Under the pieces are notes generated by a model. The model did not search any database. It worked only from the letters and a program-made list of their open reading frames with translations, and was not told the DNA's origin. DNA of 64,000 nt, taken from the IMG/VR virus record IMGVR_UViG_3300028888_000001; one strand, 5' to 3'. The position numbers and the translations under genes were made by a program. This document shows positions 1,131 through 33,752 of the stretch, one piece after another. The first letter of the stretch is position 1; every line of letters starts with the position of its first letter. Source of the DNA: a virus. Its lineage: Duplodnaviria; Caudoviricetes.

Positions 1131-1204
1131 TGAATTAGGCTTACGCCTAATTCTATTATTTTTCGATTAATAACGTATTTTTCATTTGATCTTTCTAACG
1201 ATTT
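1117..1204. repeat. 88-bp spacer copy 1: inverted 14-bp recombination cores flanking a hairpin
   Basis: AAATCGTTAGAAAG (1117-1130) ... GAATTAGGC-TTAC-GCCTAATTC hairpin ... CTTTCTAACGATTT (1191-1204). Near-identical to 24627-24714 and to the reverse complement of 30577-30664. Confidence 0.97.
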
Positions 1205-4019
1205 AGCACAATCATTATGGGGTAGCAGTGGAGAACCATCAGAAGAAGCTTCTGGAACTAATTTTAATACTATAACTAATAAAATATCTTTATTAAAAAA
1301 TGAAATAATACAATCTAATAACGGTATACAAAATTTTGCTAGTTATGGCAATTTCCAGCATTATGGTTTAGATAAGAATGGAGCCTTTTTAATATCACAA
1401 AAATATAGAGTATCTAATGATGATCCTATGCAATTTGATAGAGATATTATTATAAATATAGCAGATGGTTTTGCTGTGGGTTATATACCTTTTGTAGATT
1501 CTATTAAAGGACTATGGAGTGGATGGAAAACCGCCCCATTTAAAATTGCAGCTTTTACTGATTTTATTTTACAAATCAAAAGAAACCCAACAGAAAATTT
1601 TTCTGAAATTGCAGATGTAGATGAATTTGTATCTGCAATAACGTTTGATACATATATACATGCAAAAATTAATGCTTTAGGCGATGAAATAAACTCTATA
1701 GAACCAGGATATTACCATCCTCAAATAATAACAGAAAATAATGAGACTATATGGCCTTTAAAATATGGATATGGTAATTTAAATGGAACGTCGTTAGTAT
1801 GGATAGATTCTAAAAATTATTTAACTACGGATCCATCTGTACCAATTGCTGTTGAACCAGGCGATGTTATAGTATTAAAAGATACATTATATAGATATTT
1901 TGTAGTGGTAACTTATGATGAAGGGCAAAATTGGGAAAGCTTATCTAGTACAAGAATGACAGACTTACCAATTGTACAGAAAGGTAAGATAATAATTACC
2001 ATTAGAAAAAATGTTACTGCCTATCTTGAAAAAGATAAAATTAATAAATTTTCAGATATTATAGCTATAAATAAACATTCTCTTATATTAAATAATACTA
2101 ATAATTTAAGAAATGGCCTTATACTTTCAACTTACGGCATTCAAACATTTCAACCATACACAAGTTTTCACCATTATGGATTACATGATACTGAATATAA
2201 TGTAGGTATCAAATATAGAGTATCGAGTATAGTTCCAATAAAATTTGATATGGATATCAAAGTACACGTGAAAGATGGATTTAAATGGGGTTATATTCCT
2301 TTTGAAAATGGTGAAGCTGGTAATTGGTCAAATTGGAAAATCACAGATGTAATAATTAGTGCTAATACAGAATTTATTATTCAAATTGCTAGGGTAGATG
2401 AAAATTATTCTGAAATTGCAGATGTAGATGAATTTACATCAGCGTTAACATTTAATACAATAATAAAAGATGAAATAGAAATTTTATCGAATAAAGCCTA
2501 TACCTTTGAAAATAATATCAAAAGGATTAATAATCTTGATTATGATTTAATGAATGGCGTAGAATGGGAGCTTGGCTATTATGCCCTTGCAGGTAAAACC
2601 AATTCTGATATTATGATACGCATAAATGATTATATAACAATTAGTCAAATGAATAAAATAAATATATGGTGTGATACTGGATACAGATATTTTTACATAC
2701 TATATGATGAGAATAGAAATACTATAGAAGCAATACCATTTTCATCGTCTAAAAGAGAAATCAATGCGGTTGCTAAGAATGCTTCATATATGTCTATTAC
2801 GCTGAGAAGAAATTCTGATGGCGAGATGGATATTTCAGAGGGCGAAGTGGTACATGTAACAATAAATTCACCATTATTTAATAGCTTAGCAAATATAAAC
2901 ACATCAAGCTTATCAGACAGAATTAGCGTTGTTGAAAATATTTTCCGTTATGATAGATATTTTTCACATATTGGAGTTTCAGGAAGCACTAATATTATTA
3001 TACCATCTCAATCAATTGCAGATGTAATGAGAACAAAAAGGCTTGGGTTTAAAGTATTAGAGATTAATGTTCATAAAACATCTGATAATCATTATGTTTG
3101 TTTACATGGCTCAAGCGGAAAATTTGGAGATCAGTTTATTGGAACCGATGGAAGCAATGTTTCAGATATTGCAATTACTAGTGTAACATTAGATTGGATT
3201 AAAGAAAATGTACGTTATAAAAGTAAATATAAAAAATATCAAACTTCGCCTTATTCGTTAGAAGAGATTCTTTATGAAATGAAAAAACTTAATATCATTC
3301 CACTTGTACAATATTCCGATAATACAATGATAGATATATTAAATCAGATAATGGGTGCAAATAATTATATATTAAATTTATATGCAGGTGATAGAGACGA
3401 TAAAACTGATGCGACATGCACTTCATGGACATCTATAGCAAACATCAATGAAGCAGTTGCTAAATGCCAAACATGTGGAAAAACTTATTATCTTGGAGTA
3501 AATCATTCAAATGCTGCATTTAATGATTTCACTGATTCTGATTGGATAAATTATATAAACACTATACATGAAGCAGGATACTATGTAATGGGCGCATATA
3601 TGAATTTACAAGCTGCTGTAAAGTTTTTTGGAATGGGGTGGGATGCATTAGCATCAACCGCACAAATTAATGAAATCGAAACTGGCAATTTATGCAATCT
3701 ATTTTCTGATAATGATTTTAGTGATTTTAATACAACTGGTATTATAGAAAATGGGGTATTAACCATTGATAATGATGATAAAATTTCTCCATCTGTTACT
3801 CTTGATAGTGTATTTCTAGGTGGAGGAAGTTTACATATCCGTTTTGATGGTTTAATTCATATAAAAATAGGTAAGATTGATGACTCTTTAGAGAGTGATG
3901 GTAGTGGCGATGTGTGGGTTTCAAGTTATTTTGAAGAGCAATCACCTACATTTTCCATCGAAACCGATTCAAATGGCGCCATTATATATGAATTGTCTTA
4001 TAAGGCAAGTAGGCTTTAA
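1191..4019 (+). CDS. Silent variable cassette C2 with glycerophosphodiester phosphodiesterase (GDPD)-like domain
   Basis: ORF 1428..4019 extends 79 codons upstream in frame to the core (LSNDLAQSLWGSSGEPSEEASGTNFNT...). GDPD-like motif FSHIGVSG..IPSQSIADVMRTKRLGFKVLEINVHKTSDNHYVCLHG. Confidence 0.8.
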   Translation, partial: LSNDLAQSLWGSSGEPSEEASGTNFNTITNKISLLKNEIIQSNNGIQNFASYGNFQHYGLDKNGAFLISQKYRVSNDDPMQFDRDIIINIADGFAVGYIPFVDSIKGLWSGWKTAPFKIAAFTDFILQIKRNPTENFSEIADVDEFVSAITFDTYIHAKINALGDEINSIEPGYYHPQIITENNETIWPLKYGYGNLNGTSLVWIDSKNYLTTDPSVPIAVEPGDVIVLKDTLYRYFVVVTYDEGQNWESLSSTRMTDLPIVQKGKIIITIRKNVTAYLEKDKINKFSDIIAINKHSLILNNTNNLRNGLILSTYGIQTFQPYTSFHHYGLHDTEYNVGIKYRVSSIVPIKFDMDIKVHVKDGFKWGYIPFENGEAGNWSNWKITDVIISANTEFIIQIARVDENYSEIADVDEFTSALTFNTIIKDEIEILSNKAYTFENNIKRINNLDYDLMNGVEWELGYYALAGKTNSDIMIRINDYITISQMNKINIWCDTGYRYFYILYDENRNTIEAIPFSSSKREINAVAKNASYMSITLRRNSDGEMDISEGEVVHVTINSPLFNSLANINTSSLSDRISVVENIFRYDRYFSHIGVSGSTNIIIPSQSIADVMRTKRLGFKVLEINVHKTSDNHYVCLHGSSGKFGDQFIGTDGSNVSDIAITSVTLDWIKENVRYKSKYKKYQTSPYSLEEILYEMKKLNIIPLVQYSDNTMIDILNQIMGANNYILNLYAGDRDDKTDATCTSWTSIANINEAVAKCQTCGKTYYLGVNHSNAAFNDFTDSDWINYINTIHEAGYYVMGAYMNLQAAVKFFGMGWDALASTAQINEIETGNLCNLFSDNDFSDFNTTGIIENGVLTIDNDDKISPSVTLDSVFLGGGSLHIRFDGLIHIKIGKIDDSLESDGSGDVWVSSYFEEQSPTFSIETDSNGAIIYELSYKASRL

Positions 4020-4054
4020 TATATTAATATAAATATTATTTTCTATCGATATAA

Positions 4055-10885: not shown

Positions 10886-13111
10886 TCAAGTATTAAAACC
10901 ATATCTATTTAATGAAATATAATGAGATTTTATTGTAGATATTATTTCTCTAGCCATTAGATTTTGTCCAATTTCATTTGGATGCAATCCATCTTTAAGA
11001 GTTATACCCAATTCTCCACTAATATTAAATTCTCTAATTATACCAGAATTAGAATAATTATCAATTATTATACACCCGCAACGTTCAGCTATATGCTTTA
11101 ATTCATCATGCAATTTATCTGATGGTGCTTCATTCTCTGATCTTTGAATGGGAAGCGAACAATATACTTGAGCTAATGGAAATTGTCTTTTTATCCTTAA
11201 AAAGGCTTTTCTTGCAGCTTCGCAAAATTTATTTTCAGATAAATTGTCTATAGTAGCATCTACATCTATTGAATTTGGATATTGTTCCAAATATACTGTT
11301 TTGTTCATAGCATCTGCATATGTATCATTTGGAACTCCATCATTTGTTCCCAAAGCAAATATAATTATATCTGGATAAAAATCTCCTTCGGTTGGAAAAG
11401 CATTATGTTTATTAGGAATATCATTTATAGCTAAATCTATCTGATAATGTAAATTCTGCCTTTCATACCCAGATGTTCTGGTTTGTGATTTAAATGATGC
11501 TCCAGACATTGCATAATTTCTTAATTCTTTTATAGGTTCAGAATATTCTAATATTTCAGGCCATTTAGAATATCTTACTGTATTACCATTAGTATCTGTA
11601 TAACTATTAGATGGATGGTATTTTACCCATGCTGTGGTTTCATTGTCTTGATTTATAGTAAAGTTCTCTGCAGTTGTTATGCTATCTCCAAATACTAAAA
11701 CTGATATATCTTTTAATATATTATCAGATGCATTGGGTAAAAAGTTTTCTTTAATCTTTTCAGATGAATCTCCTATAAGTGATTCATCCCATTTATCTTT
11801 CATAATAATAATAGTATTATTAGGATCATTTATATCATAAATTCCATTATAAATATATAATAATAAATATTTTGCTGTTTCTGGCGCATATAACTTTAAT
11901 ACGTATTCATTATTATATATAGTATATATTTCTGGATTCAATGTTTCGTAAGTATCACCTGCCACAAAATTATTTTCAGTAGACCAAATATAATAATCTC
12001 TATTTCTGTTAGATACATATACATAGTAATATGTATTGGATTCAACTGGAAATATAATTGATGTAGTGTTACTATTTGCCATCAAAGTATTTGTCACTTG
12101 TGGGAATCCGTTAAATATAGTTATTAGAGAATTATCTAGCACATTGTTTTCTTCAAATAAATAATCTTTTGTTATATATTTAGATAAATCAAAATTATCA
12201 GTTGTTGTATCGACACTATTATTAGCGCTATTTTTTGAATAATAATATAATTTGGTATTATGTATTTGAGTTTCTCCGTTATACATTCTAGTTCCAAATC
12301 TTAAATATTCTGTATTTGCAGGAATTTCAAAATCATCTCTGGTAAAATTTCCAGAAATTTTATTAATATAGCCAATACATTCATAATTTGAATTATAAAA
12401 TGCAATTGCAGCAGATGATTCCCCAGCATAACAATCGGTTAGTATAAAATTCTCATTATTATATTTAATAAAATCTGTATTTCTATAATCAGGAGCGTTT
12501 GTATATACTAATCCTGTACCATCACCATTAGTAACTACTGCAATATATCCAATGAAATTATATTGTATTTCATATATTGGCATTATACAGTCTAAATTAT
12601 TTTGCATAGTTTCAATATCATAGTTAAGTAAATTTAATAGATTATCATTTAAATATTTATCATATAATTTTTCTTTTATAATATCTGGAATTGTAGTTGT
12701 GTTTTCATATAGTTTAATTTTACTCAAATCAGTATAATCATAGTTATAACTTCCAGATGCAAAATACATGAAAATATAATTAGCATTTTCATTTGTAGAA
12801 AACCATTGAATATTTGGATTGTCATTGCCGTAATGACAAGTAACTTTATCATACGTTTCACCAATAATAAATTCATTTATTGAATTTGAAATTGCATATC
12901 CCCTGCGATCTACAGGTTCACTAAAATCAATAACATAATTAGTATTTGGTTTTACTTGAAATACAATTGATGATATATTTGGTGCGTTACCATTACGTAT
13001 GGTAGTACCATCAGTAAATTTATTATTGATTACTATTAAATTATTATATTTTAATATATTATCATTTGTGTAAAAGTAAGATCTTATTTTATTATCAAAA
13101 TCGTTAGAAAG
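10886..13111 (-). CDS. Silent variable cassette C3 with SGNH/GDSL hydrolase domain
   Basis: ORF 10886..12769 extends 114 codons in frame to the core (LSNDFDNKIRSYFY...). SGNH blocks VFGDSIT, NYAMSGA, ALGTND, DGLHPN. Confidence 0.85.
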   Translation of the reverse strand, partial: LSNDFDNKIRSYFYTNDNILKYNNLIVINNKFTDGTTIRNGNAPNISSIVFQVKPNTNYVIDFSEPVDRRGYAISNSINEFIIGETYDKVTCHYGNDNPNIQWFSTNENANYIFMYFASGSYNYDYTDLSKIKLYENTTTIPDIIKEKLYDKYLNDNLLNLLNYDIETMQNNLDCIMPIYEIQYNFIGYIAVVTNGDGTGLVYTNAPDYRNTDFIKYNNENFILTDCYAGESSAAIAFYNSNYECIGYINKISGNFTRDDFEIPANTEYLRFGTRMYNGETQIHNTKLYYYSKNSANNSVDTTTDNFDLSKYITKDYLFEENNVLDNSLITIFNGFPQVTNTLMANSNTTSIIFPVESNTYYYVYVSNRNRDYYIWSTENNFVAGDTYETLNPEIYTIYNNEYVLKLYAPETAKYLLLYIYNGIYDINDPNNTIIIMKDKWDESLIGDSSEKIKENFLPNASDNILKDISVLVFGDSITTAENFTINQDNETTAWVKYHPSNSYTDTNGNTVRYSKWPEILEYSEPIKELRNYAMSGASFKSQTRTSGYERQNLHYQIDLAINDIPNKHNAFPTEGDFYPDIIIFALGTNDGVPNDTYADAMNKTVYLEQYPNSIDVDATIDNLSENKFCEAARKAFLRIKRQFPLAQVYCSLPIQRSENEAPSDKLHDELKHIAERCGCIIIDNYSNSGIIREFNISGELGITLKDGLHPNEIGQNLMAREIISTIKSHYISLNRYGFNT

Positions 13112-13119
13112 TTCAGTAA
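13098..13119 (-). repeat. Recombination site, 22-bp inverted copy of the expressed-gene site
   Basis: AAATCGTTAGAAAGTTCAGTAA is the exact reverse complement of 18242-18263. Confidence 0.95.
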
Positions 13120-13142
13120 CTTATTTTTACAAAAAAATAATA

Positions 13143-13170
13143 TGCCCATAGGGAGAAATCCCTATGGGTA
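13143..13170. terminator. Hairpin terminator insulating the silent site at 13098-13119
   Basis: TGCCCATAGGGA-GAAA-TCCCTATGGGTA. Confidence 0.8.
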
Positions 13171-13291
13171 CACATATAAGTTTAAATTATTCTTCATGTA
13201 GATCTGCTGTTATTTGATCATAATCGTTGTTAGATATAACAGTAACTCTATATATAATCAAAGAAAAACGAATTTGTAAAACAAAATTTAT

Positions 13292-13315
13292 CCCTCTAGC
13301 CGTTAGGCTAGAGGG
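13292..13315. terminator. Hairpin terminator
   Basis: CCCTCTAGCC-GTTA-GGCTAGAGGG. Confidence 0.7.
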
Positions 13316-13320
13316 TTTTA

Positions 13321-13527
13321 TTAATAATTTACATTGCTGACAATTCCGCCATTATACATATCTTTCTTTTTCTTTTCTATAATCTTATCCATTTGGCTAT
13401 AGAGAGATAATAAAGTATTATAGTCCATTGCATTTATTAAATTTATTGCTCTGGATAAATATTCTCCTTGCATATATGTATATGGATAAATATTTCTATT
13501 ATCATTGCATGTATTATAACTGCTCAT
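13321..13527 (-). CDS. Hypothetical protein
   Basis: AGGAG SD; 68 aa. Confidence 0.55.
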   Translation of the reverse strand: MSSYNTCNDNRNIYPYTYMQGEYLSRAINLINAMDYNTLLSLYSQMDKIIEKKKKDMYNGGIVSNVNY

Positions 13528-13547
13528 TATTGGCTCCTATAGGGTAT

Positions 13548-13793
13548 TCATCTCATACGTTTATCTATTATTTTCTTGCATGCTAGAAATCTTATACGAT
13601 CACTTTCAATGACAAATTTATCATTCTTATGATCTTGCATATAGTTCCAGCATTGTAGCGAAGACCAATCTTTCAATTCCGTTTCAATTGCATCATTAAT
13701 TGCTTTAGATTCTATTTTTATCATTTTTATTGATACAATGATAAATGCCACTAATACTATAGTAATTAATGTGCTTGAAATATAAAAAACCAT
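13548..13793 (-). CDS. Small membrane protein
   Basis: GAGGTG SD; N-terminal hydrophobic helix. Confidence 0.6.
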   Translation of the reverse strand: MVFYISSTLITIVLVAFIIVSIKMIKIESKAINDAIETELKDWSSLQCWNYMQDHKNDKFVIESDRIRFLACKKIIDKRMR

Positions 13794-13930
13794 ATTTTTA
13801 AATCACCTCAAAAACTTTCTATAATAGAGTATAGCACTGCTACTGCTGTGCTCGTATTCTATTATTAAGAATTAATTAGCGATATGCCAATATGATATGC
13901 ACTCTTAATACGTATATGTTGAATAAAAAA

Positions 13931-14004
13931 TAGATCGTCCGAGACTCGAACTCGGGACACACGGCTTATAAGGCCGCCGCTCTAACCTACTGAGCTAACG
14001 ATCC
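13931..14004 (-). tRNA. tRNA-Ile (anticodon UAU)
   Basis: Reverse complement GGATCGTTAGCTCAGTAGGTTAGAGCGGCGGCCTTATAAGCCGTGTGTCCCGAGTTCGAGTCTCGGACGATCTA folds as a cloverleaf; anticodon loop CT-TAT-AA; TTCGA T-loop; no encoded CCA. Confidence 0.92.
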
Positions 14005-14064
14005 ATAGTTGAGCAATAAATATGCTACAAGCCAATACTTTTATGTTATTGCTATAATATTTTA

Positions 14065-14913
14065 TTATTCAATAACATCCATCATCTGTTTATACGGATA
14101 CGGAGATCCGTGATCTATTCTATTAAGACGAGCTTTAGAAAATGCATCCATTGTTATTGGAACTCTATTGCCACCATTCAATGTAGGAATATTGTATTTA
14201 TAATGTGCTACGCAATCTCTATATACTGCTGCGGAATACGGATCAGAAAATTTTGCATGCATAGCTTCAGAACCATTGTGATTAAACGATGCATGCCATG
14301 AGTTATCTCTAAAGCTTACTCCAACATATGGATTTGTAGATGTACCACCGTATGTTTGTCTTGCCATTTGAGCCATATTCTGATTTCTCGGAATTAATAC
14401 GCAAGTCCATGGTGAATAAACTTTTTGATTTTCTGGGATACCCTGCTGAAGTGTGTCTTTGTCTAAATCATACCCATTATTAGTACAAGCCCAATTATTA
14501 TAATTTGGCATTTTTATAAAATCTAAGAAGAAATTTTTAAATGAATGCCATACTGGATGAACTCTAATACCTAAAGCACCATACCATTGATAGTCTTTAG
14601 CATTTGGATCATAGCATCTACTTAGCATAGATCTCCATATAGCATATATTCTATTATGCTCATTGATATTGGAATTATAACCGAATTTATTAGCATCATC
14701 AAAATATCCAACTCCAAATATCAATGGAAATTTTTGATCTTTAACTGCCAGCTTATGTACGTCACTAACGTTAACCCAGTATTCATAACCAGTATTTTTA
14801 AATCTAATTTTCGCTTTTGATCTATTATTTATAACAGCTTGATCTACAACAGTAAATTCCCCATACACCGGATGCTCAGCTTCAAGTCCTACACAATTCA
14901 TAGCCCTCGGCAT
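14065..14913 (-). CDS. HNH homing endonuclease-like protein with C-terminal AP2-like domain
   Basis: WRSMLSRCY..YGALGIRV..W..F..F, LDKD..YSPWTC..N and YVGVSF..WHA motifs; AAGGAGGAG SD. Confidence 0.75.
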   Translation of the reverse strand: MPRAMNCVGLEAEHPVYGEFTVVDQAVINNRSKAKIRFKNTGYEYWVNVSDVHKLAVKDQKFPLIFGVGYFDDANKFGYNSNINEHNRIYAIWRSMLSRCYDPNAKDYQWYGALGIRVHPVWHSFKNFFLDFIKMPNYNNWACTNNGYDLDKDTLQQGIPENQKVYSPWTCVLIPRNQNMAQMARQTYGGTSTNPYVGVSFRDNSWHASFNHNGSEAMHAKFSDPYSAAVYRDCVAHYKYNIPTLNGGNRVPITMDAFSKARLNRIDHGSPYPYKQMMDVIE

Positions 14914-15022
14914 TATTATACTCCTCCTTATGTATATTTATATCCATGTGTATGCTAGTGTAAATTTCGAATATATGTTTCACCACGTTTATTTTTCAAT
15001 AAAATAGACCCCAAATATCTTC

Positions 15023-15034
15023 AACATTATTATA
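15023..15034 (+). promoter_or_regulatory. Putative late promoter of the operon containing the constant tail-fibre gene
   Basis: AACA TTATTA TA upstream of 15071. Confidence 0.6.
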
Positions 15035-15070
15035 ATTGCAGCAAATATTAAAGAAAGGAGATCTCTTTCT

Positions 15071-15868: not shown

Positions 15869-15896
15869 TAAATTATACGTAAGGAGGTGAAAATAC

Positions 15897-17051: not shown

Positions 17052-17076
17052 AATAAACTTAAGGAGGATATAATAA

Positions 17077-22456: not shown

Positions 22457-24640
22457 TTATTCATCGATATTATCATCTATAATGTTATTTTGAGTTACTG
22501 TTAATTTTGATTGATTATCAATTAAATTAAAAGTGCCAGTTTTATTATAGTACTTAAATAAATTATTATTCAAACAAATATATTTTGCCGCATCACCAGT
22601 TTCGATTCCAGTATCAGTATAATAACCTACACCATCAAATATATTATTACTTATAATACATTTATTGCAATCTTGTATATTTATCGCTGGACCAGCAAAA
22701 TCACTAAATGAATTATTTTTTATTAAAACATTTGCCCCTCTAAATACATATATAGCAGATCTATTACCACTATGTAATGGATGATTATAATCATTCTGTA
22801 AATCTTTATCCCAATATGTATTAACATGAGCTATAACTATATTATCTTGAATAACACCATTGCAATGGAAAGTGTTTCCTTGAACGCAAGCTAATATATA
22901 GTTAATATTGTCTCTAAAAATAACGTTATTAGATAAGCAAAGATTTGCTGCAGCACCAATATAAAATCCTGCAAAACTACCGCCATCTACAACATTATTT
23001 CTTATAGAAATACCAACAATATTATGCCCAGCTCCATTATTTGTATCTATACACCATGGACCGTTTTCCATTAAATCTGTTATTGTATCTATATTGTCAT
23101 AATCTTTAAATAATGCGGATGTATGTGTTACATTGTTTTCTTCACACCAATGTGTGCCGCATGAATGGAATCTGCAGCTTTCAACTCTCCATCCTCTACT
23201 TGATACTGGAGGTGTACCGGCATAAGACGCTGGCCTGAATAAAACTCCTTTATTACAATTACTAAAACCGCATTCTTTTATTTCGCAATTCTTTCCAAAT
23301 GCAACTATTCCGATTATACAAAATCTTAAATAGCATCTTATTACTGTCGCATCAAGATGTGGAATTTCATCTGCATTTATAGCTGTAGATCTATGAAATT
23401 TAATACCTCTCGCTAACCAATCCGCTTGTATTGTTAAATCCTGAAAATGTGAACCACTGTCTTGTATCTCAAACATATAATATTTTGAAAAATCGCTAGA
23501 AGCCTTAATAGTTGGATTATGGCAAGAGAAACTAGTGCCTTGAAACGTCATATTAGTATATGTTCTTGGTACAACTATTGTATCTGAAATAGTGTATGTT
23601 TTATTCTTATTGAATGTTATTGTTCCATTAGCCCCAATATAATTAATGGATGCTTGTATCGCTTGATAATAATCCCCGTTATCAATTCCATCAATATATG
23701 CTAGCTCAGGATCTATTATGGCATTTAACCATGGTTTACCATTTACCATATTATCAAATACCATATTACATAAATAACAATAAACAGTATTTTCATCTAC
23801 TGATATAGCTGCATCATTGTGATGCTTTATTGTTATACTTAAATAACCATCACATTCTATTTTAATTAGCTTTCTAATTTTATGAGTATGAAAAACAGCA
23901 CCATCGTAACTCCAAATTATTGAAGCTGAACCATCTTCTTTATTAGTGTCATATATCCTAAGCACTGCCATCAAAGCATCTATTTCTTGTGTTTGAATAA
24001 TTAAATACATACCTTTGCTGACTTTAGGCATATTTGTATTGATCAACCTAATATTACTATTATTAATGGTTCCATTGTCTGCTCTTGAACCCAATTTAAA
24101 ATCATTTATAGCTTCCTTACCAGAATTTATAATTTTTTCTAAATTATTTTTATTGTCTTCACAATGCTCTCTAGCAATTTTATCTTTTGCAGTGAAATTA
24201 TTATATATTATATCATTTATAGTACTACTATTTAAATTAACTATATTTGGAAATACATAGCAATCATCTGGTTTGATCAGTTCTCCGGTTGTCTCATTAT
24301 ATGCATAACAAAAATTAATAAAATAAGCATTATTTGTTTGGATATCTACATTAGTATAATTTTTAACATTAGATGTTGTGCTACGTTCAATAATACGTTT
24401 AATAAATGTTTTATTTTCATCATATAACCCTATGCGATGTATAAAACTATTACCACCATTATTTATAAATCCCAATGTAATATATGAATACTTAGAAACA
24501 TCTATAAAATCGCTCACCCAGAATTTATTTGCTTTAACTACCTTGCCATAAGCATCAAGTTGAACATCGTATTGTACTTTATGTTTATTAAATAAATTAT
24601 TATTTTTATTTTCTGTTGAATATTTTAAATCGTTAGAAAG
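22457..24640 (-). CDS. Silent variable cassette C5 with right-handed beta-helix (pectate lyase-like depolymerase)
   Basis: ORF 22457..24517 extends 41 codons in frame to the core (LSNDLKYSTENKNNNLFNK...). DYYQAIQASINY..GTITF..TYTISDTI cap motif followed by IxNN beta-helix rungs. Confidence 0.8.
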   Translation of the reverse strand, partial: LSNDLKYSTENKNNNLFNKHKVQYDVQLDAYGKVVKANKFWVSDFIDVSKYSYITLGFINNGGNSFIHRIGLYDENKTFIKRIIERSTTSNVKNYTNVDIQTNNAYFINFCYAYNETTGELIKPDDCYVFPNIVNLNSSTINDIIYNNFTAKDKIAREHCEDNKNNLEKIINSGKEAINDFKLGSRADNGTINNSNIRLINTNMPKVSKGMYLIIQTQEIDALMAVLRIYDTNKEDGSASIIWSYDGAVFHTHKIRKLIKIECDGYLSITIKHHNDAAISVDENTVYCYLCNMVFDNMVNGKPWLNAIIDPELAYIDGIDNGDYYQAIQASINYIGANGTITFNKNKTYTISDTIVVPRTYTNMTFQGTSFSCHNPTIKASSDFSKYYMFEIQDSGSHFQDLTIQADWLARGIKFHRSTAINADEIPHLDATVIRCYLRFCIIGIVAFGKNCEIKECGFSNCNKGVLFRPASYAGTPPVSSRGWRVESCRFHSCGTHWCEENNVTHTSALFKDYDNIDTITDLMENGPWCIDTNNGAGHNIVGISIRNNVVDGGSFAGFYIGAAANLCLSNNVIFRDNINYILACVQGNTFHCNGVIQDNIVIAHVNTYWDKDLQNDYNHPLHSGNRSAIYVFRGANVLIKNNSFSDFAGPAINIQDCNKCIISNNIFDGVGYYTDTGIETGDAAKYICLNNNLFKYYNKTGTFNLIDNQSKLTVTQNNIIDDNIDE

Positions 24641-24714
24641 TGAATTAGGCTTACGCCTAATTCTATTATTTTTTGATTAATAATGTATTTTTCATTTGAT
24701 CTTTCTAACGATTT
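24627..24714. repeat. 88-bp spacer copy 2
   Basis: Same as 1117-1204 except two C>T changes. Confidence 0.97.
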
Positions 24715-26479
24715 AGATAATTCCATTGATAATGCAAATTATATTAACAATTTGTTAGGAATTCAACAAAATAGTTTAGCAATACCACCAACTTTAATTG
24801 AAGAAGATACAGCAAGCCAAAGAATTTCATCCAATGCAGATGCTCCATTTATATTAAATGAACCTATATATTCCATTAATAGCCTTATTATAGGTATTAT
24901 GATTAATGCCAAAACTATTGGCACATTAGATATTTATACAATTAAAAGGATAAATGCTATCGATGGCCAGCCTTTTAATTATAATGATTTTACATTAAAA
25001 GAAACCTTAAATGTTACTAATACTGGAGTTCAAATTATTAAATTTAAAAATCCATTTATTCTTCCAGATGATGAATATTTAGCAGTAGCTTCACCAAATA
25101 GCACATGTAGATTTTATTTTGGTACTGGTTACAATCAGAGTTTTTTATATAGATCACATAATACTGAAACTGATACGTATATTCATAAAAAATCATCGTA
25201 TATAAATATAGCGGTCATATATAAAGATATGTATTTAATAAATGATGATAGTATATTTAAAAAAGTAAGTTCAATTTTACAAATACTTAATTTACTTAAT
25301 ATTAATGAAACACTTATTTTAAATGGTCGTGTTAGTACAGCTAAAAATATTGCAAATATTAATAATGCTCCATATTTTTTACAAACAACTTTTAATTATG
25401 ATTATTATATTACAAAAATAAATTTTAAAACATCAACATCGGGTACTATATCATTTGGAGTTATTGATCCAAAAGATTTAACGAATAATAAACCAGAAAA
25501 TTTAAATATACAAAACATACAAACTACAACTGTATATTCTGAAGGTGAACATGATATTATTTTTGATGAGCCACTATTACTTAAAAAAGGATGGCGTCTA
25601 ATGTATTATTTACCATCAGATTCTGCTAAAATTATATATCACAGCGGAACTCCTGCAGATGTCGATCATGGATTTTTATTTTATAATGCTACCAGTAAAA
25701 CACTACAAACTGCTACTAGTTCGTTAAATTTGATATTATATGGCATAAAATCAACAAATGATGATACTACTGATAGTATTTATAAAGATAAAGCCATTAG
25801 TATACTTGGAGATTCAATTAGTACATTTTCAGGCTATATTCCTGAAGGGAATGCTGTATATTATCCAAGCGGAACAATTACATCTGTATCTGATACATGG
25901 TGGAAAAAATTAATAGATGCATTAGGGGCAAATCTTGAAATAAATAACTCATGGTCTGGATCTAGAGTAACTACAACTGCTGGTGAAACTTCTGCAGGAT
26001 GCATGGATAGGTGTGAAAATCTAGGCAATCCAGATGCTATTATAATATACATGGGTATTAACGATTTCAATAATGAAGTGCCGATTGGAGAGTATGATGG
26101 AACTAGTACTATTCCAGAAAGCACTATAACTTTCAGAGAAGCCTATGCAATAATGCTTAATAAAGTATTGACAAAATATCAATTTGCTGAAATTTGGGTT
26201 TGTACTTTGCCACAATGTGAAAGAAATAGTGAAACAGGATTCCCAGAAATTAATCAACAAAATTTACCTTTATATGAATATAACAAAGCTATAGTCGAAT
26301 TGGCTAATGCTTTTGGAGTAAAAATTTTAGACCATAATAAATGCGGTATGACGTATCAAAATATGCCGACATTTAATCCAGATAAATTACATCCTAATAA
26401 AAATGGACATTCGCTTATGGCAAATAATGCAATTAAACAAATGGACCCAAGTATTAAATTTAGGTACCCTATTAGTTAA
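24701..26479 (+). CDS. Silent variable cassette C6 with SGNH/GDSL hydrolase domain
   Basis: LSNDLDNSID at the core; ILGDSIS, NSWSGS, MGINDF, DKLHPN motifs. The annotated ATG at 24683 lies in the spacer and has no SD. Confidence 0.85.
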   Translation, partial: LSNDLDNSIDNANYINNLLGIQQNSLAIPPTLIEEDTASQRISSNADAPFILNEPIYSINSLIIGIMINAKTIGTLDIYTIKRINAIDGQPFNYNDFTLKETLNVTNTGVQIIKFKNPFILPDDEYLAVASPNSTCRFYFGTGYNQSFLYRSHNTETDTYIHKKSSYINIAVIYKDMYLINDDSIFKKVSSILQILNLLNINETLILNGRVSTAKNIANINNAPYFLQTTFNYDYYITKINFKTSTSGTISFGVIDPKDLTNNKPENLNIQNIQTTTVYSEGEHDIIFDEPLLLKKGWRLMYYLPSDSAKIIYHSGTPADVDHGFLFYNATSKTLQTATSSLNLILYGIKSTNDDTTDSIYKDKAISILGDSISTFSGYIPEGNAVYYPSGTITSVSDTWWKKLIDALGANLEINNSWSGSRVTTTAGETSAGCMDRCENLGNPDAIIIYMGINDFNNEVPIGEYDGTSTIPESTITFREAYAIMLNKVLTKYQFAEIWVCTLPQCERNSETGFPEINQQNLPLYEYNKAIVELANAFGVKILDHNKCGMTYQNMPTFNPDKLHPNKNGHSLMANNAIKQMDPSIKFRYPIS

Positions 26480-26552: not shown

Positions 26553-27578
26553 ATGTATAATAATTTTAAAAATGATTTTATTTCAGATTTACAAACACTT
26601 AATTTAGAATTATCAAAAAGTCAAATGAATAAAATATTAGCGGTGCTTGACAGCACCGCTACTAATTATGACATTATCGATCGTGCCAGCGCAAATAGAT
26701 TACAGGTTACTAATGGAGTGCCGCAAAGTGTATATGATTACATACAATGTAAGAAAGCTGAAGGATTATCTAAAGATACATTATATGTATATAAAATAAT
26801 GCTAGAAATATTCTTTCGTACAGTACAAAAGCCTCCAGAATATATTGAGGCTACAGATATAATGAACTTTTTGAGGGAATATCAAAATAACAATAAAATA
26901 TCTAATAGAACGTTAGATAAGTATAGACAATATATTTGTTGTTATTTTGTGTTTATTTATGATTATGGATATATTTCTAGAAATCCATCTCGTCAAGTAA
27001 AAAAGATTAAATACGAAACCAAACCCCAACCAGTATTAACAGAATATGAGACTGAGCTCATTCGTGGGGCATGTAAATCTAAGAGAGAAACAGCAATAAT
27101 AGAATTCTTTCTTTCTACAGCATGCAGAGTTGGGGAATTAGTTAAAGTAAAAATATCTGATATTGACTGGGACCGAGATGAAGTCATGTTATTTGGTAAA
27201 GGATCTAAATATGGTGTGAGTTTTATAACGCCTAGATGTAGATATGCTATAGAAGAATATCTTAAACATAGAAAATTAATAGATCCAGACGAGCATTCAG
27301 ATTATTTATTTATTAGAGAAAGAAAGCCTTATACGTGTTTATCTACTAGAGGAGTTGAAGATATAATAGAACGTATAATGAGTAGAGTTAGTAATATTCC
27401 TAAAAGAGTAACACCTCATACTACAAGAAGAAGCAGTTCTACCAATGCATATCTTAATGGCATGAGTCTAGAAGACATTAGAGGATGGTTAAGGCATGCA
27501 GATATTAGAACTACGGAAATTTATGTAAGAAATTCTACTAACCATATACATGGTGAACATAAGCGATTTGTACATTAA
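26553..27578 (+). CDS. XerC/D-like tyrosine recombinase, candidate shufflon invertase
   Basis: AAGGAGG SD. Catalytic set R (STACRVGEL), K (GKGSK), HxxR (TPHTTR), H (LRHAD), Y (TTEIY); N-terminal core-binding domain. Confidence 0.92.
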   Translation: MYNNFKNDFISDLQTLNLELSKSQMNKILAVLDSTATNYDIIDRASANRLQVTNGVPQSVYDYIQCKKAEGLSKDTLYVYKIMLEIFFRTVQKPPEYIEATDIMNFLREYQNNNKISNRTLDKYRQYICCYFVFIYDYGYISRNPSRQVKKIKYETKPQPVLTEYETELIRGACKSKRETAIIEFFLSTACRVGELVKVKISDIDWDRDEVMLFGKGSKYGVSFITPRCRYAIEEYLKHRKLIDPDEHSDYLFIRERKPYTCLSTRGVEDIIERIMSRVSNIPKRVTPHTTRRSSSTNAYLNGMSLEDIRGWLRHADIRTTEIYVRNSTNHIHGEHKRFVH

Positions 27579-28562: not shown

Positions 28563-30590
28563 TTATGTTAAATTAACGTTATCAACTAATTCAAAAAATA
28601 TATCTCCCTCGCTAATATTTGGCAAAGTAAATTTTGATATCATAATTTTATTATTAGACGAAATCATGTATACTATATTATCAAAAACAGAAAATGAAGG
28701 ATAAGAAAACCCATCATACCCCTCTATAATTTTTAAACTATTCATTATATTAGCAGTATCAATCTTATAAATTTCAAAATTATTACGCGTATATGGATTT
28801 GAAAATAAATATAATTCATTATTTACCTCAAAAAATGCTGGCCTTGAACTACAATTTGGCACCATACAATATTCTTTTATATTAGCATTTAAATCTAATT
28901 TAACTAAAATTCCGGCGGTATTATTTGTATAGACAGTGTTGTTATTTATATCTTTATTAGGATGGGGCCTCGACATTGCATAAATATGGCTATCTTTATA
29001 CCATACAGCTAATTCATATATTGATATTTGTTTAAATGGATAAGCGAAGAAAATTTGCCAATTATAATGATCTGTAGTTTTAAATATAATAGCATTTTTA
29101 TAAGTACCAGAAGAGCAAACCCAGCCAATATAATAATTGCCATTTCCATCATTACCAATAGTGCAGTTAGCTTGAGCACTTGTATATGCACCGGATGAAA
29201 AACTTGTTTTATAATAATAATTTATCCATTCGTAATTTAACATAATTCCATTTACATAAACAGGGTTATAATTTTGGAATTGATTATTAATTATATTATA
29301 TTCACAATAAAATTGAGTATAAATATCGTTTATTTTAACAATATAAAGAATGTGTATAATATTATCAGTGAGGTACATTGTTGGGGAGCCAGCTCCACCT
29401 GTTTCTACTAATGATTCATTATAAATTTTGCCATTTTCTGCAACTATTTGCGTATCAATTTTTTCTTTTGTAAACGGATTAATTCTATCAAATAAAAGTT
29501 TAGCAGATGGATTGCTTGCAGAATCTCCTCCTGGTATAGTGGCATCATATTGTACGTATAAGGTGTATAATATACTATTAGTATAAATTATAGTACAATC
29601 ATGCACTCCATAAGTTGTTTGATTTATTCTAATAATTTCATTGCTCACATATTGTTTATACAAATTAGCGCCATTTTTTAAAGCTAATATTCTTCTACTC
29701 ATTATATTATTTTGTATCGCATATGATAAATTTAATGCTTGGTCTAATGGATATTCATCTATAATATCATTTTGCTTTTTATCAATATAATTAATAATAT
29801 AAGAATTAATATTATTTAATATAATAATTTTAACGTTAATTTCACCAGTAAAATCTGTAAATCTTAATCTATTGACTTTAGTTGTAACATGATATATTCC
29901 ATTTATATTGGTTTTATAAGCAACAATAGTTTGTGCATAATTATTATCTATTAATCTAAATTCAGATAAGGTGGCTATTTCTGTATCTACTTCTACAATA
30001 TAAACTGCACCTGCATCTAATATTTCGCTTCCCACAAAATTTATATTAAATGCAGAATTTGCAGTTTGTTCAATAATTTTATTAGAAGTATCCTCAAAAA
30101 CAAAATCATCTGCTAAATTATGGTTAAATATTTTTAGATTTGGCATTTGCAATATAAGTTGAAGTTTTGCTTCTGTTAAAGTCGCTGCATCTGTTTTAAT
30201 TAAATATTTTTCTGTATTTATATCCGCCCTATAATTGCAAAATATGAAAGCTGTATTTTCATTTTGTATTTCGATTAAAGCATTGGTTCTACTATGAGTA
30301 TATAAATAATTTTTATCAATATCCAACTCTATTGTTTCAAAGGCATCTGTATAAAATGTTTCTCCTTTAGAAGTATTAATAAAAATTACTGGAGAAAACC
30401 ACTTATCTGATTCAAAAAGTTTATTTGTGGATGGAGAAAAATATATATTTTGGTACTGCGCATAATATAACAAATTACCTGTTTGTATTTCATTTAATTT
30501 TATAGCCGCAGTATTAAAATTTAATCCAGAAGCTTCTTCAGATGCAATTCTAGTTTCTCCATATAGTTTATAATCAATATCGTTAGAAAG
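28563..30590 (-). CDS. Silent variable cassette C7, possible sialidase-like beta-propeller
   Basis: ORF 28563..30473 extends 39 codons in frame to the core (LSNDIDYKLYGETRIASEEASGLNFNT...). Asp-box-like KTTDHYNW, ELAV..IYAMSR and FSYPS motifs; fold call tentative. Confidence 0.75.
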   Translation of the reverse strand, partial: LSNDIDYKLYGETRIASEEASGLNFNTAAIKLNEIQTGNLLYYAQYQNIYFSPSTNKLFESDKWFSPVIFINTSKGETFYTDAFETIELDIDKNYLYTHSRTNALIEIQNENTAFIFCNYRADINTEKYLIKTDAATLTEAKLQLILQMPNLKIFNHNLADDFVFEDTSNKIIEQTANSAFNINFVGSEILDAGAVYIVEVDTEIATLSEFRLIDNNYAQTIVAYKTNINGIYHVTTKVNRLRFTDFTGEINVKIIILNNINSYIINYIDKKQNDIIDEYPLDQALNLSYAIQNNIMSRRILALKNGANLYKQYVSNEIIRINQTTYGVHDCTIIYTNSILYTLYVQYDATIPGGDSASNPSAKLLFDRINPFTKEKIDTQIVAENGKIYNESLVETGGAGSPTMYLTDNIIHILYIVKINDIYTQFYCEYNIINNQFQNYNPVYVNGIMLNYEWINYYYKTSFSSGAYTSAQANCTIGNDGNGNYYIGWVCSSGTYKNAIIFKTTDHYNWQIFFAYPFKQISIYELAVWYKDSHIYAMSRPHPNKDINNNTVYTNNTAGILVKLDLNANIKEYCMVPNCSSRPAFFEVNNELYLFSNPYTRNNFEIYKIDTANIMNSLKIIEGYDGFSYPSFSVFDNIVYMISSNNKIMISKFTLPNISEGDIFFELVDNVNLT

Positions 30591-30664
30591 ATCAAATGAA
30601 AAATACGTTATTAATCGAAAAATAATAGAATTAGGCGTAAGCCTAATTCACTTTCTAACGATTT
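30577..30664. repeat. 88-bp spacer copy 3, inverted relative to copies 1 and 2
   Basis: Reverse complement of 1117-1204 apart from one mismatch in the left core (ATATCGTTAGAAAG). Confidence 0.97.
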
Positions 30665-33600
30665 AATGTTTATTTATGGTCAAAAAGATATTGATATCGA
30701 TCTTCCAACACCAACAACTGGATATTTTTATAATTCAAATGGCGAAAAGGTTAATGACGATTCATTTACTAATTCTAAATTTTATATTATTGATATATCT
30801 AAGTATATTGGTTATAGCGTACTAGTAAATATAAAATCAAATGCTCCTTCTTCATTACGTAGAACATTTATTATGCGAAATAACGAAACTACTATTTATG
30901 TAACGGCGGAAAATGTTTTAAATAGTGTAGACGATTATAGCAAATTCACCCATAAAATTCCTTATGATGGAAAATACTTATATATCTCTTGCATTTTAGC
31001 GGCTGAGATTTCTGTAAAAATTAGAAATACATCGTTGACTGAAAGCTATCAACAGAAAAATAGATTATTAAATAATGCCATATATGCGGCTGCTTTAGCA
31101 AATAATTTTACTCACATCGATTTTAATAATGGAGCTGCTGTTATAAATAATGGTGTAGAGTATACACATGACGATTTATCCAATCAAATAGGATTTACAC
31201 TTTATCCTAATACCGATTATTACATTATTAAATTCCGATATACAAAAAATGCGGTATACTTATTGGAAGCTTCAAGCTCTTCATACGATTTATCATATTT
31301 TGTTATGTTCTCAAATGGTGAAATTATACCGCCATTAATTGTAGAGGGCTCAGACTATAAATGGTTAGTTTCTAAAGAATTGATCGGTGATAGAGACGGA
31401 ATAGAATTTAGATTAGACAATAGATCTGGCAAAGCTCCTATCACGATAGATCGTGTTGCTGCATTCATTTCTATTATTGATAACGAAGAAGAAAATAATG
31501 TGGATGATGTTACTATAATAAATAAAAATAATATAATACCATATTTCGATACGACTAATCAAACTGTAATTCTGCATTTTAATTTTATAGATACTTATTA
31601 TTATTATAAAAATGATAATTCTAATACTAACTATAGTATAAATTATAATAATATCGTAAATGAAAAAGCAAATAATGCTGTAATTTTAAGTTATAATAAA
31701 AATGATTTAATAGATAGCTCAGATAGTCAATCGACTGTAAATCGATATTTATGTTATGATTTAAATAGTAATGAATTAAAGATATATAAAATATATAAAA
31801 ATATAGCAAAAAATAATATTTTACTAATGCATTTCTTTGCTACAATATCAACAGCCTCATCGAATTATAATTTTATTATTAGCAACATTTCCAACATTTA
31901 TTATATCGATGGTGTTGAATATAATAATCAAATCCAATCTTCAGATATTTATAATTTAGATTATATTTTTAGAAATTGCATCCATAAAGATTTAACTGAA
32001 ATTAGTAATACTAATTCAATTACACAAAATCAAGATGGAACTATAACTATTGCTCCTGGAGGTTTTTATTTTCCAGGAATCGCCGTGCATGGCTATTTTA
32101 ATGGCGATTGCCATATTAGAATAAGGCTAGAAAGTACTAATGCTATAACTTCTTTATATGCTGCTAAATCTATAGTAACAAGTGGAGGCGGCTATGATAA
32201 ATTGCCGTTTACTTTATTATCAGAAAATGAATCTGTAAATGAAACAGTGTGGTATTTGCATATAACAGATACAGATTATGATAAAGCAAATAGTTATACA
32301 AGTTATATTTTACGTATAGACAATAGACAAAATGCGAATGATATAATAATAAAGTCAATAGAAATTGTAGATTCTGGAATACCTGCGAGGGTAAATTCGG
32401 TCTCTACTTCAACCTCAATCGCATATGTATCTACAAATGGAAGCGATGATAACGTCGGATCAAAAGCAATGCCATTTGCCAGTGTAACCCAAGCACTTCA
32501 AAGCGGAGCTAATTATATCTTAGTAGAACCAGGTATTTATCATGAAAATATAAATTTTACTGATGCTCAAGGAAAAATTACATTATTAAATAATGGCACT
32601 TACAATTTATGTAAATTTTTACCAGATGATGAATCTAAATATATATTATCAAAAACAGAAACTAAAGTAGATGGTTATAATAACGTTTATAAAGCATCAA
32701 GTACAGTTACGTTAACTCAATATTATTTATTCCAAAATGGAGTAAATGATTTAAGCACAGAAATTTTAGACAGCGAAAGATTACCTCAGCAAAGAGGTAT
32801 GAAATACCGTTGCGAGAATACTAAATTACAAAAGTGCAGCATGACTCAATTAAGCACAGCTTTACATGAAATAGAAACATGCACCGATAATGTTTATAAA
32901 TTCTTCCAAGACCCAGAAACTTTAGATGTATATTTTTGTAGGCCTCAAGAAGTTTCAGAAACAAATTATTTAGCTTTTCCAGGAACTACAACTTTATTTA
33001 ATGGATTATCAAAAAATGTAAGCCTCGAAGTTATTGGCATAGAATGTATGTATATGTCTTTTAATGTTAGTTTTGCTGATAGATGCAAAATTGTAGATTG
33101 CAAGGCTGGATATAATCAAGCTAGTGGAGCATTTATTTATAATAGGCAAGTTGGAACTGAATTTATTCGATGCGAAGCCATAAGATGTATTAATAATTCT
33201 AATGGAGATGGCTTTAACGGGCATTCTATTAATGCCGGTGATATTTATTCTAAACAAACTACAGTAAGTTTGATAGATTGTTGGTCTCATGATAATTACG
33301 ATGATGGTTATTCAGATCATGAAAGAAGCGAAATCACTATTCAAGGCGGATTATATGAATGGAATGGTAAAGGTGGTATAGTACCTTCATATGGTTCTCA
33401 TTGCACTTGCTATAATGTATATTCTCGCAATAATTTTGCTGGATTTTATTATGTTGGAGATGTTGATGAAGCCGAGGGCGGTATATATGGTCAAATGTCA
33501 TGTTTCTATTGTCATGCTGAAAATAATAATAGGGGTGGCGCAAAAACTGGTTTTGGCATAACCGGTAATGGTAATAGAATGGAACTTATAGGGTGTACTT

Positions 33601-33752
33601 CTATAGGTAATAATACAGGGTATAGTTGTGGTACAAATAATGTAGTTAGAATGATAGATTGTAAAGCGTTAAACAATTCAGTTTCAGTAACAAATTTTCC
33701 TGAAACTGCAAACGTAGAGATTATAACTACTGATATTGTGTCTGCTCAGTAA
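30651..33752 (+). CDS. Silent variable cassette C8 with right-handed beta-helix domain
   Basis: LSNDL-MFIYG in frame with ORF 30666. AYVSTNGSDDNVGSKAMPFASVTQAL cap, then GDGFNGH / HDNYDDGYSDHE beta-helix rungs. Confidence 0.85.
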   Translation, partial: LSNDLMFIYGQKDIDIDLPTPTTGYFYNSNGEKVNDDSFTNSKFYIIDISKYIGYSVLVNIKSNAPSSLRRTFIMRNNETTIYVTAENVLNSVDDYSKFTHKIPYDGKYLYISCILAAEISVKIRNTSLTESYQQKNRLLNNAIYAAALANNFTHIDFNNGAAVINNGVEYTHDDLSNQIGFTLYPNTDYYIIKFRYTKNAVYLLEASSSSYDLSYFVMFSNGEIIPPLIVEGSDYKWLVSKELIGDRDGIEFRLDNRSGKAPITIDRVAAFISIIDNEEENNVDDVTIINKNNIIPYFDTTNQTVILHFNFIDTYYYYKNDNSNTNYSINYNNIVNEKANNAVILSYNKNDLIDSSDSQSTVNRYLCYDLNSNELKIYKIYKNIAKNNILLMHFFATISTASSNYNFIISNISNIYYIDGVEYNNQIQSSDIYNLDYIFRNCIHKDLTEISNTNSITQNQDGTITIAPGGFYFPGIAVHGYFNGDCHIRIRLESTNAITSLYAAKSIVTSGGGYDKLPFTLLSENESVNETVWYLHITDTDYDKANSYTSYILRIDNRQNANDIIIKSIEIVDSGIPARVNSVSTSTSIAYVSTNGSDDNVGSKAMPFASVTQALQSGANYILVEPGIYHENINFTDAQGKITLLNNGTYNLCKFLPDDESKYILSKTETKVDGYNNVYKASSTVTLTQYYLFQNGVNDLSTEILDSERLPQQRGMKYRCENTKLQKCSMTQLSTALHEIETCTDNVYKFFQDPETLDVYFCRPQEVSETNYLAFPGTTTLFNGLSKNVSLEVIGIECMYMSFNVSFADRCKIVDCKAGYNQASGAFIYNRQVGTEFIRCEAIRCINNSNGDGFNGHSINAGDIYSKQTTVSLIDCWSHDNYDDGYSDHERSEITIQGGLYEWNGKGGIVPSYGSHCTCYNVYSRNNFAGFYYVGDVDEAEGGIYGQMSCFYCHAENNNRGGAKTGFGITGNGNRMELIGCTSIGNNTGYSCGTNNVVRMIDCKALNNSVSVTNFPETANVEIITTDIVSAQ

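What the first reader, a model, noticed from the sequence alone, without database searches (positions are those of the whole stretch)
1191..33752. The cassettes are a toolkit of different cell-surface-polymer enzymes, not allelic binding tips
Seen motifs: C2 GDPD-like; C3 and C6 SGNH esterases; C4 calcineurin-like phosphoesterase; C5 and C8 beta-helices; C7 possible sialidase-like propeller. Each enzyme sits C-terminal to several small beta-rich modules. Known: GDPD domains on Gram-positive phage baseplates degrade teichoic acid, SGNH tailspikes deacetylate polysaccharides, beta-helices depolymerise capsules. Inferred: the switch changes the chemistry of attack, perhaps tracking phase-variable capsule or teichoic acid in the host.
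Basis: partly seen in the sequence, partly recalled or inferred. Interest (0 to 1): 0.8.

Follow-up and report, generated by a model that had tools for sequence, protein, structure and literature searches.

The report
Jumbo phage shufflon swapping tail enzymes
A large virus of sheep-gut bacteria keeps 14 interchangeable gene ends, encoding five unrelated kinds of surface-attacking enzyme, and appears to splice one at a time onto a single tail protein by DNA recombination, so it can change how it attacks the host cell coat, not just where it binds.

Summary
Confirmed and larger than reported. The window lies in a complete 313-kb sheep-gut jumbo myovirus. Fourteen cassettes (8 in the window, 6 outside, up to 152 kb away) start in frame at CTTTCTAACGAT; one (C4) is fused to a 391-aa constant part behind a late-type promoter; two tyrosine recombinases are intact. 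All seven fold calls held: SGNH esterase x4, calcineurin-like phosphoesterase x4, GDPD x3, beta-helix x2, sialidase-fold propeller x1 (C2 and C7 by AlphaFold plus structure search). Catalytic sets are complete in C3, C4, C6, near-complete in C7, Asp motifs in C8; C2 keeps both His but lacks two metal ligands; C5 is untested. A related 325-kb phage expresses, fused at the same core, a cassette 90.5% identical to one that is silent here 68 kb away; three other relatives express SGNH. Two corrections: each cassette also swaps 290-700 aa of repeated modules, and same-fold cassettes are divergent alleles, so 'enzymes, not binding tips' is a false split. Substrates, host and live switching are not shown. 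Closest known: Rin/Min shufflons (about 100-aa binding tips). The scan noted this system before only on this same genome.

The parts
1..1130 (-). Cassette C1 (runs off the window; 891 aa in the genome): two module-A repeats, C-terminal GDPD
   Evidence: (GDPD E 1.2e-6); His584, Glu611, Asp613, His626, Asp740 read from the sequence
1119..1202 (.). 84-bp parking spacer 1: two inverted 12-bp cores around a 9-bp hairpin with T run
   Evidence: six copies in the genome, three in each orientation
1191..4019 (+). Cassette C2 (942 aa): three module-B repeats, divergent GDPD barrel (from 2943), terminal beta-sandwich
   Evidence: His593, Glu624, His639 kept, Asp replaced by Asn626, third ligand Gln707
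10886..13111 (-). Cassette C3 (741 aa): SGNH esterase, parked at the far end of the expression module
   Evidence: Ser477, Gly537, Asn590, Asp707, His710
13100..18261 (.). 5.1-kb expression module bounded by inverted cores that share the left arm TTACTGAA
   Evidence: same layout (3.9-5.0 kb) in L071, L073, L077
15023..15034 (+). Late-type promoter motif AACA-N6-TA
   Evidence: 33 of 246 genes against 4-9 at other spacings; also upstream of tail sheath; kept in four relatives
15071..17051 (+). Two genes (265 and 384 aa) co-transcribed ahead of the switched gene
   Evidence: orthologues travel with the constant part in all relatives seen
17077..18249 (+). Constant N-terminal part (391 aa), ending in the ADAKVTGD motif at the core
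   Evidence: (PHROG tail protein E 3e-6, tail fiber E 0.002)
18250..20427 (+). Cassette C4 (725 aa), the one now expressed: two module-A repeats, calcineurin-like metallophosphoesterase
   Evidence: DxH 450, GDxxD 480, GNHD 507, H594, GHxH 626
22457..24640 (-). Cassette C5 (727 aa): right-handed beta-helix, catalytic status untested
24629..24712 (.). Parking spacer 2
24701..26479 (+). Cassette C6 (592 aa): two module-C repeats, SGNH esterase
   Evidence: Ser372, Gly420, Asn454, Asp561, His564
26553..27578 (+). Tyrosine recombinase (341 aa); an 83% identical second copy lies at genome 124124-125149
   Evidence: R192 K216 H289 R292 H315 Y324 all present
28563..30590 (-). Cassette C7 (675 aa): sialidase-fold six-bladed propeller (from 29735 down)
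   Evidence: His330, Asp356, Glu526, Arg541, Arg602, Tyr630
30579..30662 (.). Parking spacer 3 (opposite orientation)
30651..33752 (+). Cassette C8 (1033 aa): beta-helix (from 32403) with invariant DGF and DDG motifs
   Evidence: Asp853, Asp884, Asp885 invariant in 61 family members

Best explanation
A tyrosine-recombinase shufflon spread over a jumbo phage genome. One late operon makes a virion tail-type protein whose first 391 aa are constant and whose remainder is whichever cassette sits at the expression core. The other 13 cassettes are parked, headless, in back-to-back pairs around an 84-bp spacer (or at the far end of the 5.1-kb expression module). Recombination between inverted cores brings any cassette to the expression site in one or two inversions, turning over 5 to about 150 kb of DNA. 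Each cassette is a complete business end: a string of small modules (probably binding or stalk) plus one hydrolytic or lytic domain. The five folds point to removing O-acetyl groups (SGNH), cutting phosphodiesters of teichoic-acid-like or phosphorylated polymers (GDPD, metallophosphoesterase), removing an acidic keto-sugar (sialidase fold) or cutting a polysaccharide (beta-helix). Switching therefore changes both specificity and chemistry, and most likely host range among Gram-positive rumen bacteria. Shown: cores, frames, folds, residues, exchange at the core between related phages. Inferred: the recombinase acts on these cores, the route is inversion, the protein is on the virion, the enzymes are active, their substrates and the host.
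For: 14 in-frame cores, 7 per strand. Folds and residues. In L071 the DNA matches our silent cassette at genome 34601-37135 (91.8%) up to the core and our constant part (87.6%) from the core on; protein 90.5% identical over 842 aa. L073, L077, L089 express SGNH fusions from the orthologous operon. The same pair-spacer-recombinase layout recurs with a changed core (TCTAGTGAT) where the recombinase is about 50% identical (L009, L091). Spacers occur in both orientations. Silent cassettes have no Shine-Dalgarno before their first ATG. Late motif. Virion link: PHROG tail hits, 9WWC tail protein, stand-alone homologues fused to PF10651, PF18454, PF05658 or beside a phage connector, top structural match a phage spike domain (PMC13433997). 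63% of genes have a Shine-Dalgarno motif; Atlas neighbours of C7 are mostly Bacillota.
Against: No enzyme assay, proteomics or host. C2 lacks two of three GDPD metal ligands; C7 has His for the first Arg; C8 has no Lys at the PL9 base position; C5 untested; two outside SGNH cassettes lack the Asp of the triad. Inversion alone cannot explain the relatives: the gene downstream of the shared cassette differs between L071 and this genome, and strains with an identical recombinase protein carry different cassettes beside it, so cassettes are also replaced. Long inversions would flip RNA polymerase and tape-measure-like genes.
Confidence: 0.75

Rival explanations
1. The cassettes are mainly binding tips. 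The enzyme folds are partly relics or binding pockets, and specificity is set by the N-terminal modules; switching changes the receptor, as in Rin or Min, and catalysis is secondary.
For: Modules make up 43-73% of each cassette and recur regardless of enzyme class; C2 family has invariant Asn for the metal-binding Asp; C5 shows no recognised motif; several cassettes share one fold.
Against: Complete catalytic sets in C3, C4, C6, three outside phosphoesterases and two GDPDs; invariant catalytic-type residues across 34-61 homologues of C2, C7, C8 at 20-60% identity; SGNH tail fibres of other phages are active esterases (PMC13123978).
Confidence: 0.15
2. The cores are integration and exchange sites, not a live switch: cassettes are gained and swapped between co-infecting phages (integron-like), and only the local 5.1-kb flip or nothing occurs within a population.
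For: Repertoires barely overlap between relatives (1 close orthologue among 15 cassettes seen); neighbours differ; a second recombinase with its own pair lies 152 kb away.
Against: Strict back-to-back pairing with 7 cores per strand and spacers in both orientations fit inversion; all 13 silent frames are intact over 500-1000 codons, which needs selection through at least occasional expression.
Confidence: 0.2
3. The switched protein is not a virion part but a phage-encoded enzyme that remodels the infected host's own surface (for example to block superinfection).
For: The constant part has only weak tail hits and no recognised baseplate anchor.
Against: No signal peptide or membrane segment is visible in the constant part; late promoter motif; homologues are fused to baseplate and fibre domains.
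Confidence: 0.05
4. The wide scatter of cassettes is an assembly artefact caused by the six near-identical spacers.
For: Logan unitigs break at the 84-bp spacer, which is collapsed at about four times the depth.
Against: The repeat is shorter than the 127-base assembly overlap; independent assemblies of relatives also place pairs among core genes; the fold inventory does not depend on order.
Confidence: 0.05

Closest known systems
Rin shufflon of Bifidobacterium prophages (PMC6109161)
   Same: Phage tyrosine recombinase without arm-binding domain beside cassettes; constant N-terminus; short asymmetric in-frame crossover site (11 bp there, 12 bp here) in front of each C-terminal cassette.
   Different: Rin has five cassettes of 95-100 aa in one compact locus, nearly all TP901-1-type binding heads. 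Here 14 cassettes of 506-1033 aa with five unrelated enzyme folds, parked in pairs across about 180 kb of a lytic-type jumbo genome, with two recombinases and an invertible expression operon.
Min (p15B), Cin (P1), Gin (Mu) tail-fibre inversion systems (as described in PMC6109161)
   Same: Inversion joins alternative C-termini to a constant tail-fibre start to change host specificity.
   Different: Serine recombinases, short fibre tips, compact loci, no catalytic domains reported.
BV01-like tail-fibre shufflon of Phocaeicola vulgatus phages (PMC13596623, preprint)
   Same: Gut phage, multi-cassette, 10-bp motif, proposed answer to host surface variation.
   Different: 1.7-kb locus, three cassettes, carbohydrate-binding fibre; activity shown by reads, which is missing here.
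Enzymatic virion proteins: GDPD on Ld17 baseplate and enterococcal tails (PMC10194240), phage 812/K spike petal domain (PMC13433997, PDB 9F49), SGNH tail fibres (PMC13123978), endosialidases K1F and phi92 (PDB 1V0E, 4HIZ)
   Same: Same folds, C-terminal position on tail proteins; the two His of the 812 petal are also what C2 keeps.
   Different: These are fixed genes, exchanged only in evolution; none is described as a programmed switch between enzyme classes. No tail-borne calcineurin-like phosphoesterase turned up in the papers read.
R64 plasmid shufflon (Rci, PilV) (from own knowledge; named in PMC9881135)
   Same: Tyrosine recombinase, many sites, conserved part on the cassette side with variable left arm.
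   Different: About 2-kb locus of short adhesin tips on a plasmid.

Membership tests
Shufflon (Rin/Min type) | Repeated crossover site in frame ahead of each cassette, in both orientations | tested here: met
   14 cores, 7 per strand, all open frames
Shufflon (Rin/Min type) | One constant N-terminus; other cassettes headless | tested here: met
   391 open codons upstream only at C4, 3-19 at the others; no Shine-Dalgarno at first ATG
Shufflon (Rin/Min type) | Linked site-specific recombinase with intact active site | tested here: met
   RKHRHY complete, two copies
Shufflon (Rin/Min type) | Alternative fusions exist at the site | tested here: met
   Between related phages: L071, L073, L077, L089
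Shufflon (Rin/Min type) | Alternative arrangements coexist within one population | tested here: inconclusive
   Only assembled contigs were available; they drop rare variants
Shufflon (Rin/Min type) | Recombinase inverts DNA between the sites; variants change host range | not testable with these tools
   needs experiment
SGNH hydrolase (C3, C6) | Blocks I (GDS), II (G), III (GxND), V (DxxH) | tested here: met
Calcineurin-like metallophosphoesterase (C4) | DxH, GDxxD, GNHD/E, H, GHxH | tested here: met
GDPD (C2) | GDPD barrel fold | tested here: met
   Z 17-21 to GDPD-fold chains in the first 21 rows, next row 13
GDPD (C2) | Two catalytic His | tested here: met
   His593, His639 invariant in 34 sequences
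GDPD (C2) | Three metal ligands Glu, Asp, Glu (PMC10194240) | tested here: not met
   Glu624 kept; Asn626 invariant in place of Asp; Gln707 (Glu in 15 of 34). C1 and the outside GDPD keep acidic residues at all three
Sialidase GH33 (C7) | Sialidase-type propeller fold | tested here: met
   Z 28.1, rmsd 3.0 over 304 residues to NanA
Sialidase GH33 (C7) | Asp acid/base, Glu, Tyr nucleophile, second and third Arg | tested here: met
   Asp356, Glu526, Arg541, Arg602, Tyr630 conserved; spacings 15/61/28 against 16/58/31 in NanA; matched by sequence spacing, not by superposition
Sialidase GH33 (C7) | First Arg of the triad (RIP motif) | tested here: not met
   Invariant His330, 26 residues before the Asp (25 in NanA); so a sialidase-like enzyme, substrate open
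Polysaccharide lyase PL9 (C8) | Beta-helix with DGF and DDG acid motifs | tested here: met
   profile aligns these motifs with 5OLQ; invariant
Polysaccharide lyase PL9 (C8) | Lys base stacked on the third Asp (from own knowledge of Pel9A) | tested here: inconclusive
   Val/Thr-Pro at the expected place by coil register, a conserved Lys907 four residues earlier; no model was made
Beta-helix depolymerase (C5) | Catalytic acid residues in the groove | not tested
   no homologue alignment or model left in the budget; fold only

The most novel reading that the evidence does not exclude
A lineage of rumen jumbo phages uses its whole genome as the shufflon: site-specific inversions of 5-150 kb, across essential genes, pick one of 14 enzyme heads of five or more unrelated chemistries for one virion appendage within a living population, while the same core serves as a landing site for new enzyme cassettes from other phages.
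Probability: 0.45. Interest if true: 0.92.

Novelty: new variant of a known kind. Interest (0 to 1): 0.8.

Why it matters
Known phage shufflons swap short binding tips in a 2-4 kb locus. This one swaps whole 500-1000-residue enzyme heads between unrelated folds and spreads its cassettes over more than half of a 313-kb genome, and the design is shared by a lineage of 290-325 kb gut phages. It gives a natural, ready-paired panel of enzymes against the surface polymers of rumen bacteria (including uncharacterised sialidase-like, GDPD-like and beta-helix families and tail-borne metallophosphoesterases), a direct way to ask whether phages bet-hedge on chemistry of attack, a cause for gene-order scrambling in jumbo phages, and a tyrosine recombinase that must keep direction over very long distances.

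Tried and rejected
Reads: only Logan contigs of the probable source sample were available; one contig spans 13968-24654 across the expression core without a branch and no joint at a core was among those shown; contigs drop rare variants, so this is no evidence either way. The three goat runs cover the stretch only in scraps. Pattern and protein scans of viral and metagenome contigs found no close relative; relatives came through the recombinase cluster instead. No cultured phage is close. Single-sequence PDB searches of C2, C4 and the 960-aa outside cassette gave nothing. The C7 profile's weak GH43 hit was superseded by the structure search. Module A has no Pfam family. My recollection of a tail shufflon in crAss002 was not borne out by PMC8042965 and was dropped. 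L005 and L011 carry related recombinases without this layout in the stretch seen. Pfam sheath model found nothing; PHROG did. Ten literature searches found no description of an enzyme-class shufflon, within an incomplete library.
Full report
Setting. The window is positions 233541-297540 (reverse strand) of a complete 313,331-bp virus record with terminal repeats, held in full only by a sheep gut metagenome run that may be its source. It encodes a tail sheath, a multi-subunit RNA polymerase subunit and a 4520-aa tape-measure-like protein with wall hydrolase domains: a jumbo myovirus. About 63% of genes carry a Shine-Dalgarno motif, which with the GDPD cargo suggests a Gram-positive host; the host is inferred, not shown.

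The cassettes. The 12-mer CTTTCTAACGAT occurs eight times in the window and 14 times in the genome, seven per strand, against 0.07 expected. Every copy opens a stop-free frame beginning L-S-N-D, 506-1033 codons long. Twelve sit back to back in six pairs around a near-identical 84-bp spacer holding a terminator-like hairpin, three copies in each orientation. The seventh pair, C3 and C4, flanks a 5.1-kb module carrying an operon of 265 aa, 384 aa and a 391-aa constant part fused in frame to C4. Only C4 has a long open frame upstream; the first ATGs of the others lack a Shine-Dalgarno motif. The operon is preceded by AACA-N6-TA, a motif found before 33 of 246 genes (4-9 at other spacings), including the sheath, and kept in four relatives; from my own knowledge this is the late promoter consensus of AR9-like phages. 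Six cassettes lie outside the window, 62-68 kb and 152 kb from the expression site on the circle; the last pair has its own recombinase copy, 83% identical. Both strands and all catalytic residues of the recombinase are in order.

Fold test. C3 and C6 are SGNH hydrolases with all four blocks. C4 is a calcineurin-like phosphoesterase with all five motifs. C2 had only a Pfam hint (E 0.025); its model (pLDDT 95.9) matches GDPD-fold chains at Z 17-21, best the C-terminal domain of phage K gp155, followed by a beta-sandwich. Both His are invariant in 34 homologues, but the metal-binding Asp is an invariant Asn and the third ligand is Gln, against the five residues given in PMC10194240; the phage 812 spike petal is likewise described by its two His (PMC13433997). 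C7's model (pLDDT 92.9) matches sialidases at Z 28. Its family conserves Asp, Glu, Arg, Arg, Tyr at NanA-like spacings (PMC2531273), with His for the first Arg and one extra conserved Arg, so it is sialidase-like with an open substrate. C8 belongs to a large beta-helix family (665 hits) with invariant DGF and DDG motifs that align with the PL9 lyase 5OLQ; these acids also fit inverting beta-helix hydrolases (own knowledge), so lyase versus hydrolase is unresolved. C5 is a beta-helix by Pfam and Atlas with no catalytic test. With C1 and the outside cassettes the tally is SGNH 4, metallophosphoesterase 4, GDPD 3, beta-helix 2, sialidase fold 1. Relatives add alpha/beta-hydrolase, metallo-beta-lactamase and pectinesterase folds (the first two below curated cut-offs).

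Same-fold cassettes are 18-38% identical in the catalytic domain: divergent alleles. Each cassette also carries 290-700 aa ahead of the enzyme. A 125-aa module occurs one to four times in six cassettes of three enzyme classes, two other module types in C2 and C6; the first matches a solved phage tail protein (9WWC, E 1.9e-7). The switch thus replaces modules and enzyme together, and enzymatic tail proteins are receptor-binding proteins in their own right (PMC13123978).

Evidence for switching. Phages with recombinases 81-85% identical keep the operon, the core and the pair layout. In L071 (325 kb) the constant part (82% identical) is fused to a cassette 90.5% identical over all 842 aa to our silent cassette at genome 34605, 68.5 kb from our expression site; the DNA match changes partner exactly at the core. 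L073, L077 and L089 express SGNH heads. More distant jumbo phages (recombinase about 50% identical) have the same layout with the core TCTAGTGAT. Across close relatives the invariant stretch is CTAACGA with a variable left arm, the size of a tyrosine recombinase crossover region. The core sits at the end of the ADAKxTGD motif, which also precedes the variable part in 20 of 233 homologues from other phages: the shufflon exploits an existing module joint. Orientation logic allows every cassette to be reached by one or two inversions. Limits: no within-population variant was seen in contigs, and cassettes are also replaced, since neighbours differ and strains with an identical recombinase carry different adjacent cassettes in different gene contexts.

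Verdict. It works like Rin and Min (PMC6109161) and meets the sequence criteria of a shufflon, but differs in cassette number, size, enzyme content and genome-wide spread. New variant of a known kind; interest 0.8.

Noticed in passing
window 14065-14913 (-) and 13930-14005 (-): An HNH-endonuclease-like gene (PHROG E 2e-38) and a tRNA-Ile(TAT) ride inside the invertible expression module; L071 has a similar gene there, L073 and L077 do not.
   Followed up: partly
window 27499-28536: An Xre-type HTH gene lies between the recombinase and a degenerate copy of the recombinase 3' end; in relatives a cassette ends directly against the recombinase, so this looks like an insertion.
   Followed up: partly
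window 5879-8629 (+): 916-aa tail-fibre-like gene with internal repeats, related to the constant part (32%) but without a core.
   Followed up: no
window 20538-22415 (+): Endolysin-like domain gene (PF25309, E 1.7e-58) between C4 and C5; it would be flipped by the shortest swap with C5.
   Followed up: no
L003:5822-7249 (+), genome 299153-300580: 475-aa stand-alone gene right after C1 with PHROG tail fibre and phosphodiesterase hits: possibly a fixed GDPD-like tail enzyme.
   Followed up: no
L002:7210-10614, genome 124124-128614: Remote cassette pair with its own recombinase beside the tail sheath and tube region; the GDPD cassette has 36% G+C against 25-30% for the other cassettes, hinting at recent gain.
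   Followed up: partly
L073:4780: In this relative the constant part is 496 aa, ends in a different sequence and has a one-base change in the core (CTTTCTAACGAG), so the constant part itself varies.
   Followed up: no
L005:6700-12121: A 262-kb contig with a 58% identical recombinase has long inverted repeats within repeat-rich fibre-like genes: perhaps a different inversion system.
   Followed up: no
window-wide, e.g. 4054-4100, 33768-33814: A family of hairpins of the type AGGGAG(C/T)AATCCCT ends many genes and cassettes: the phage's common terminator.
   Followed up: no
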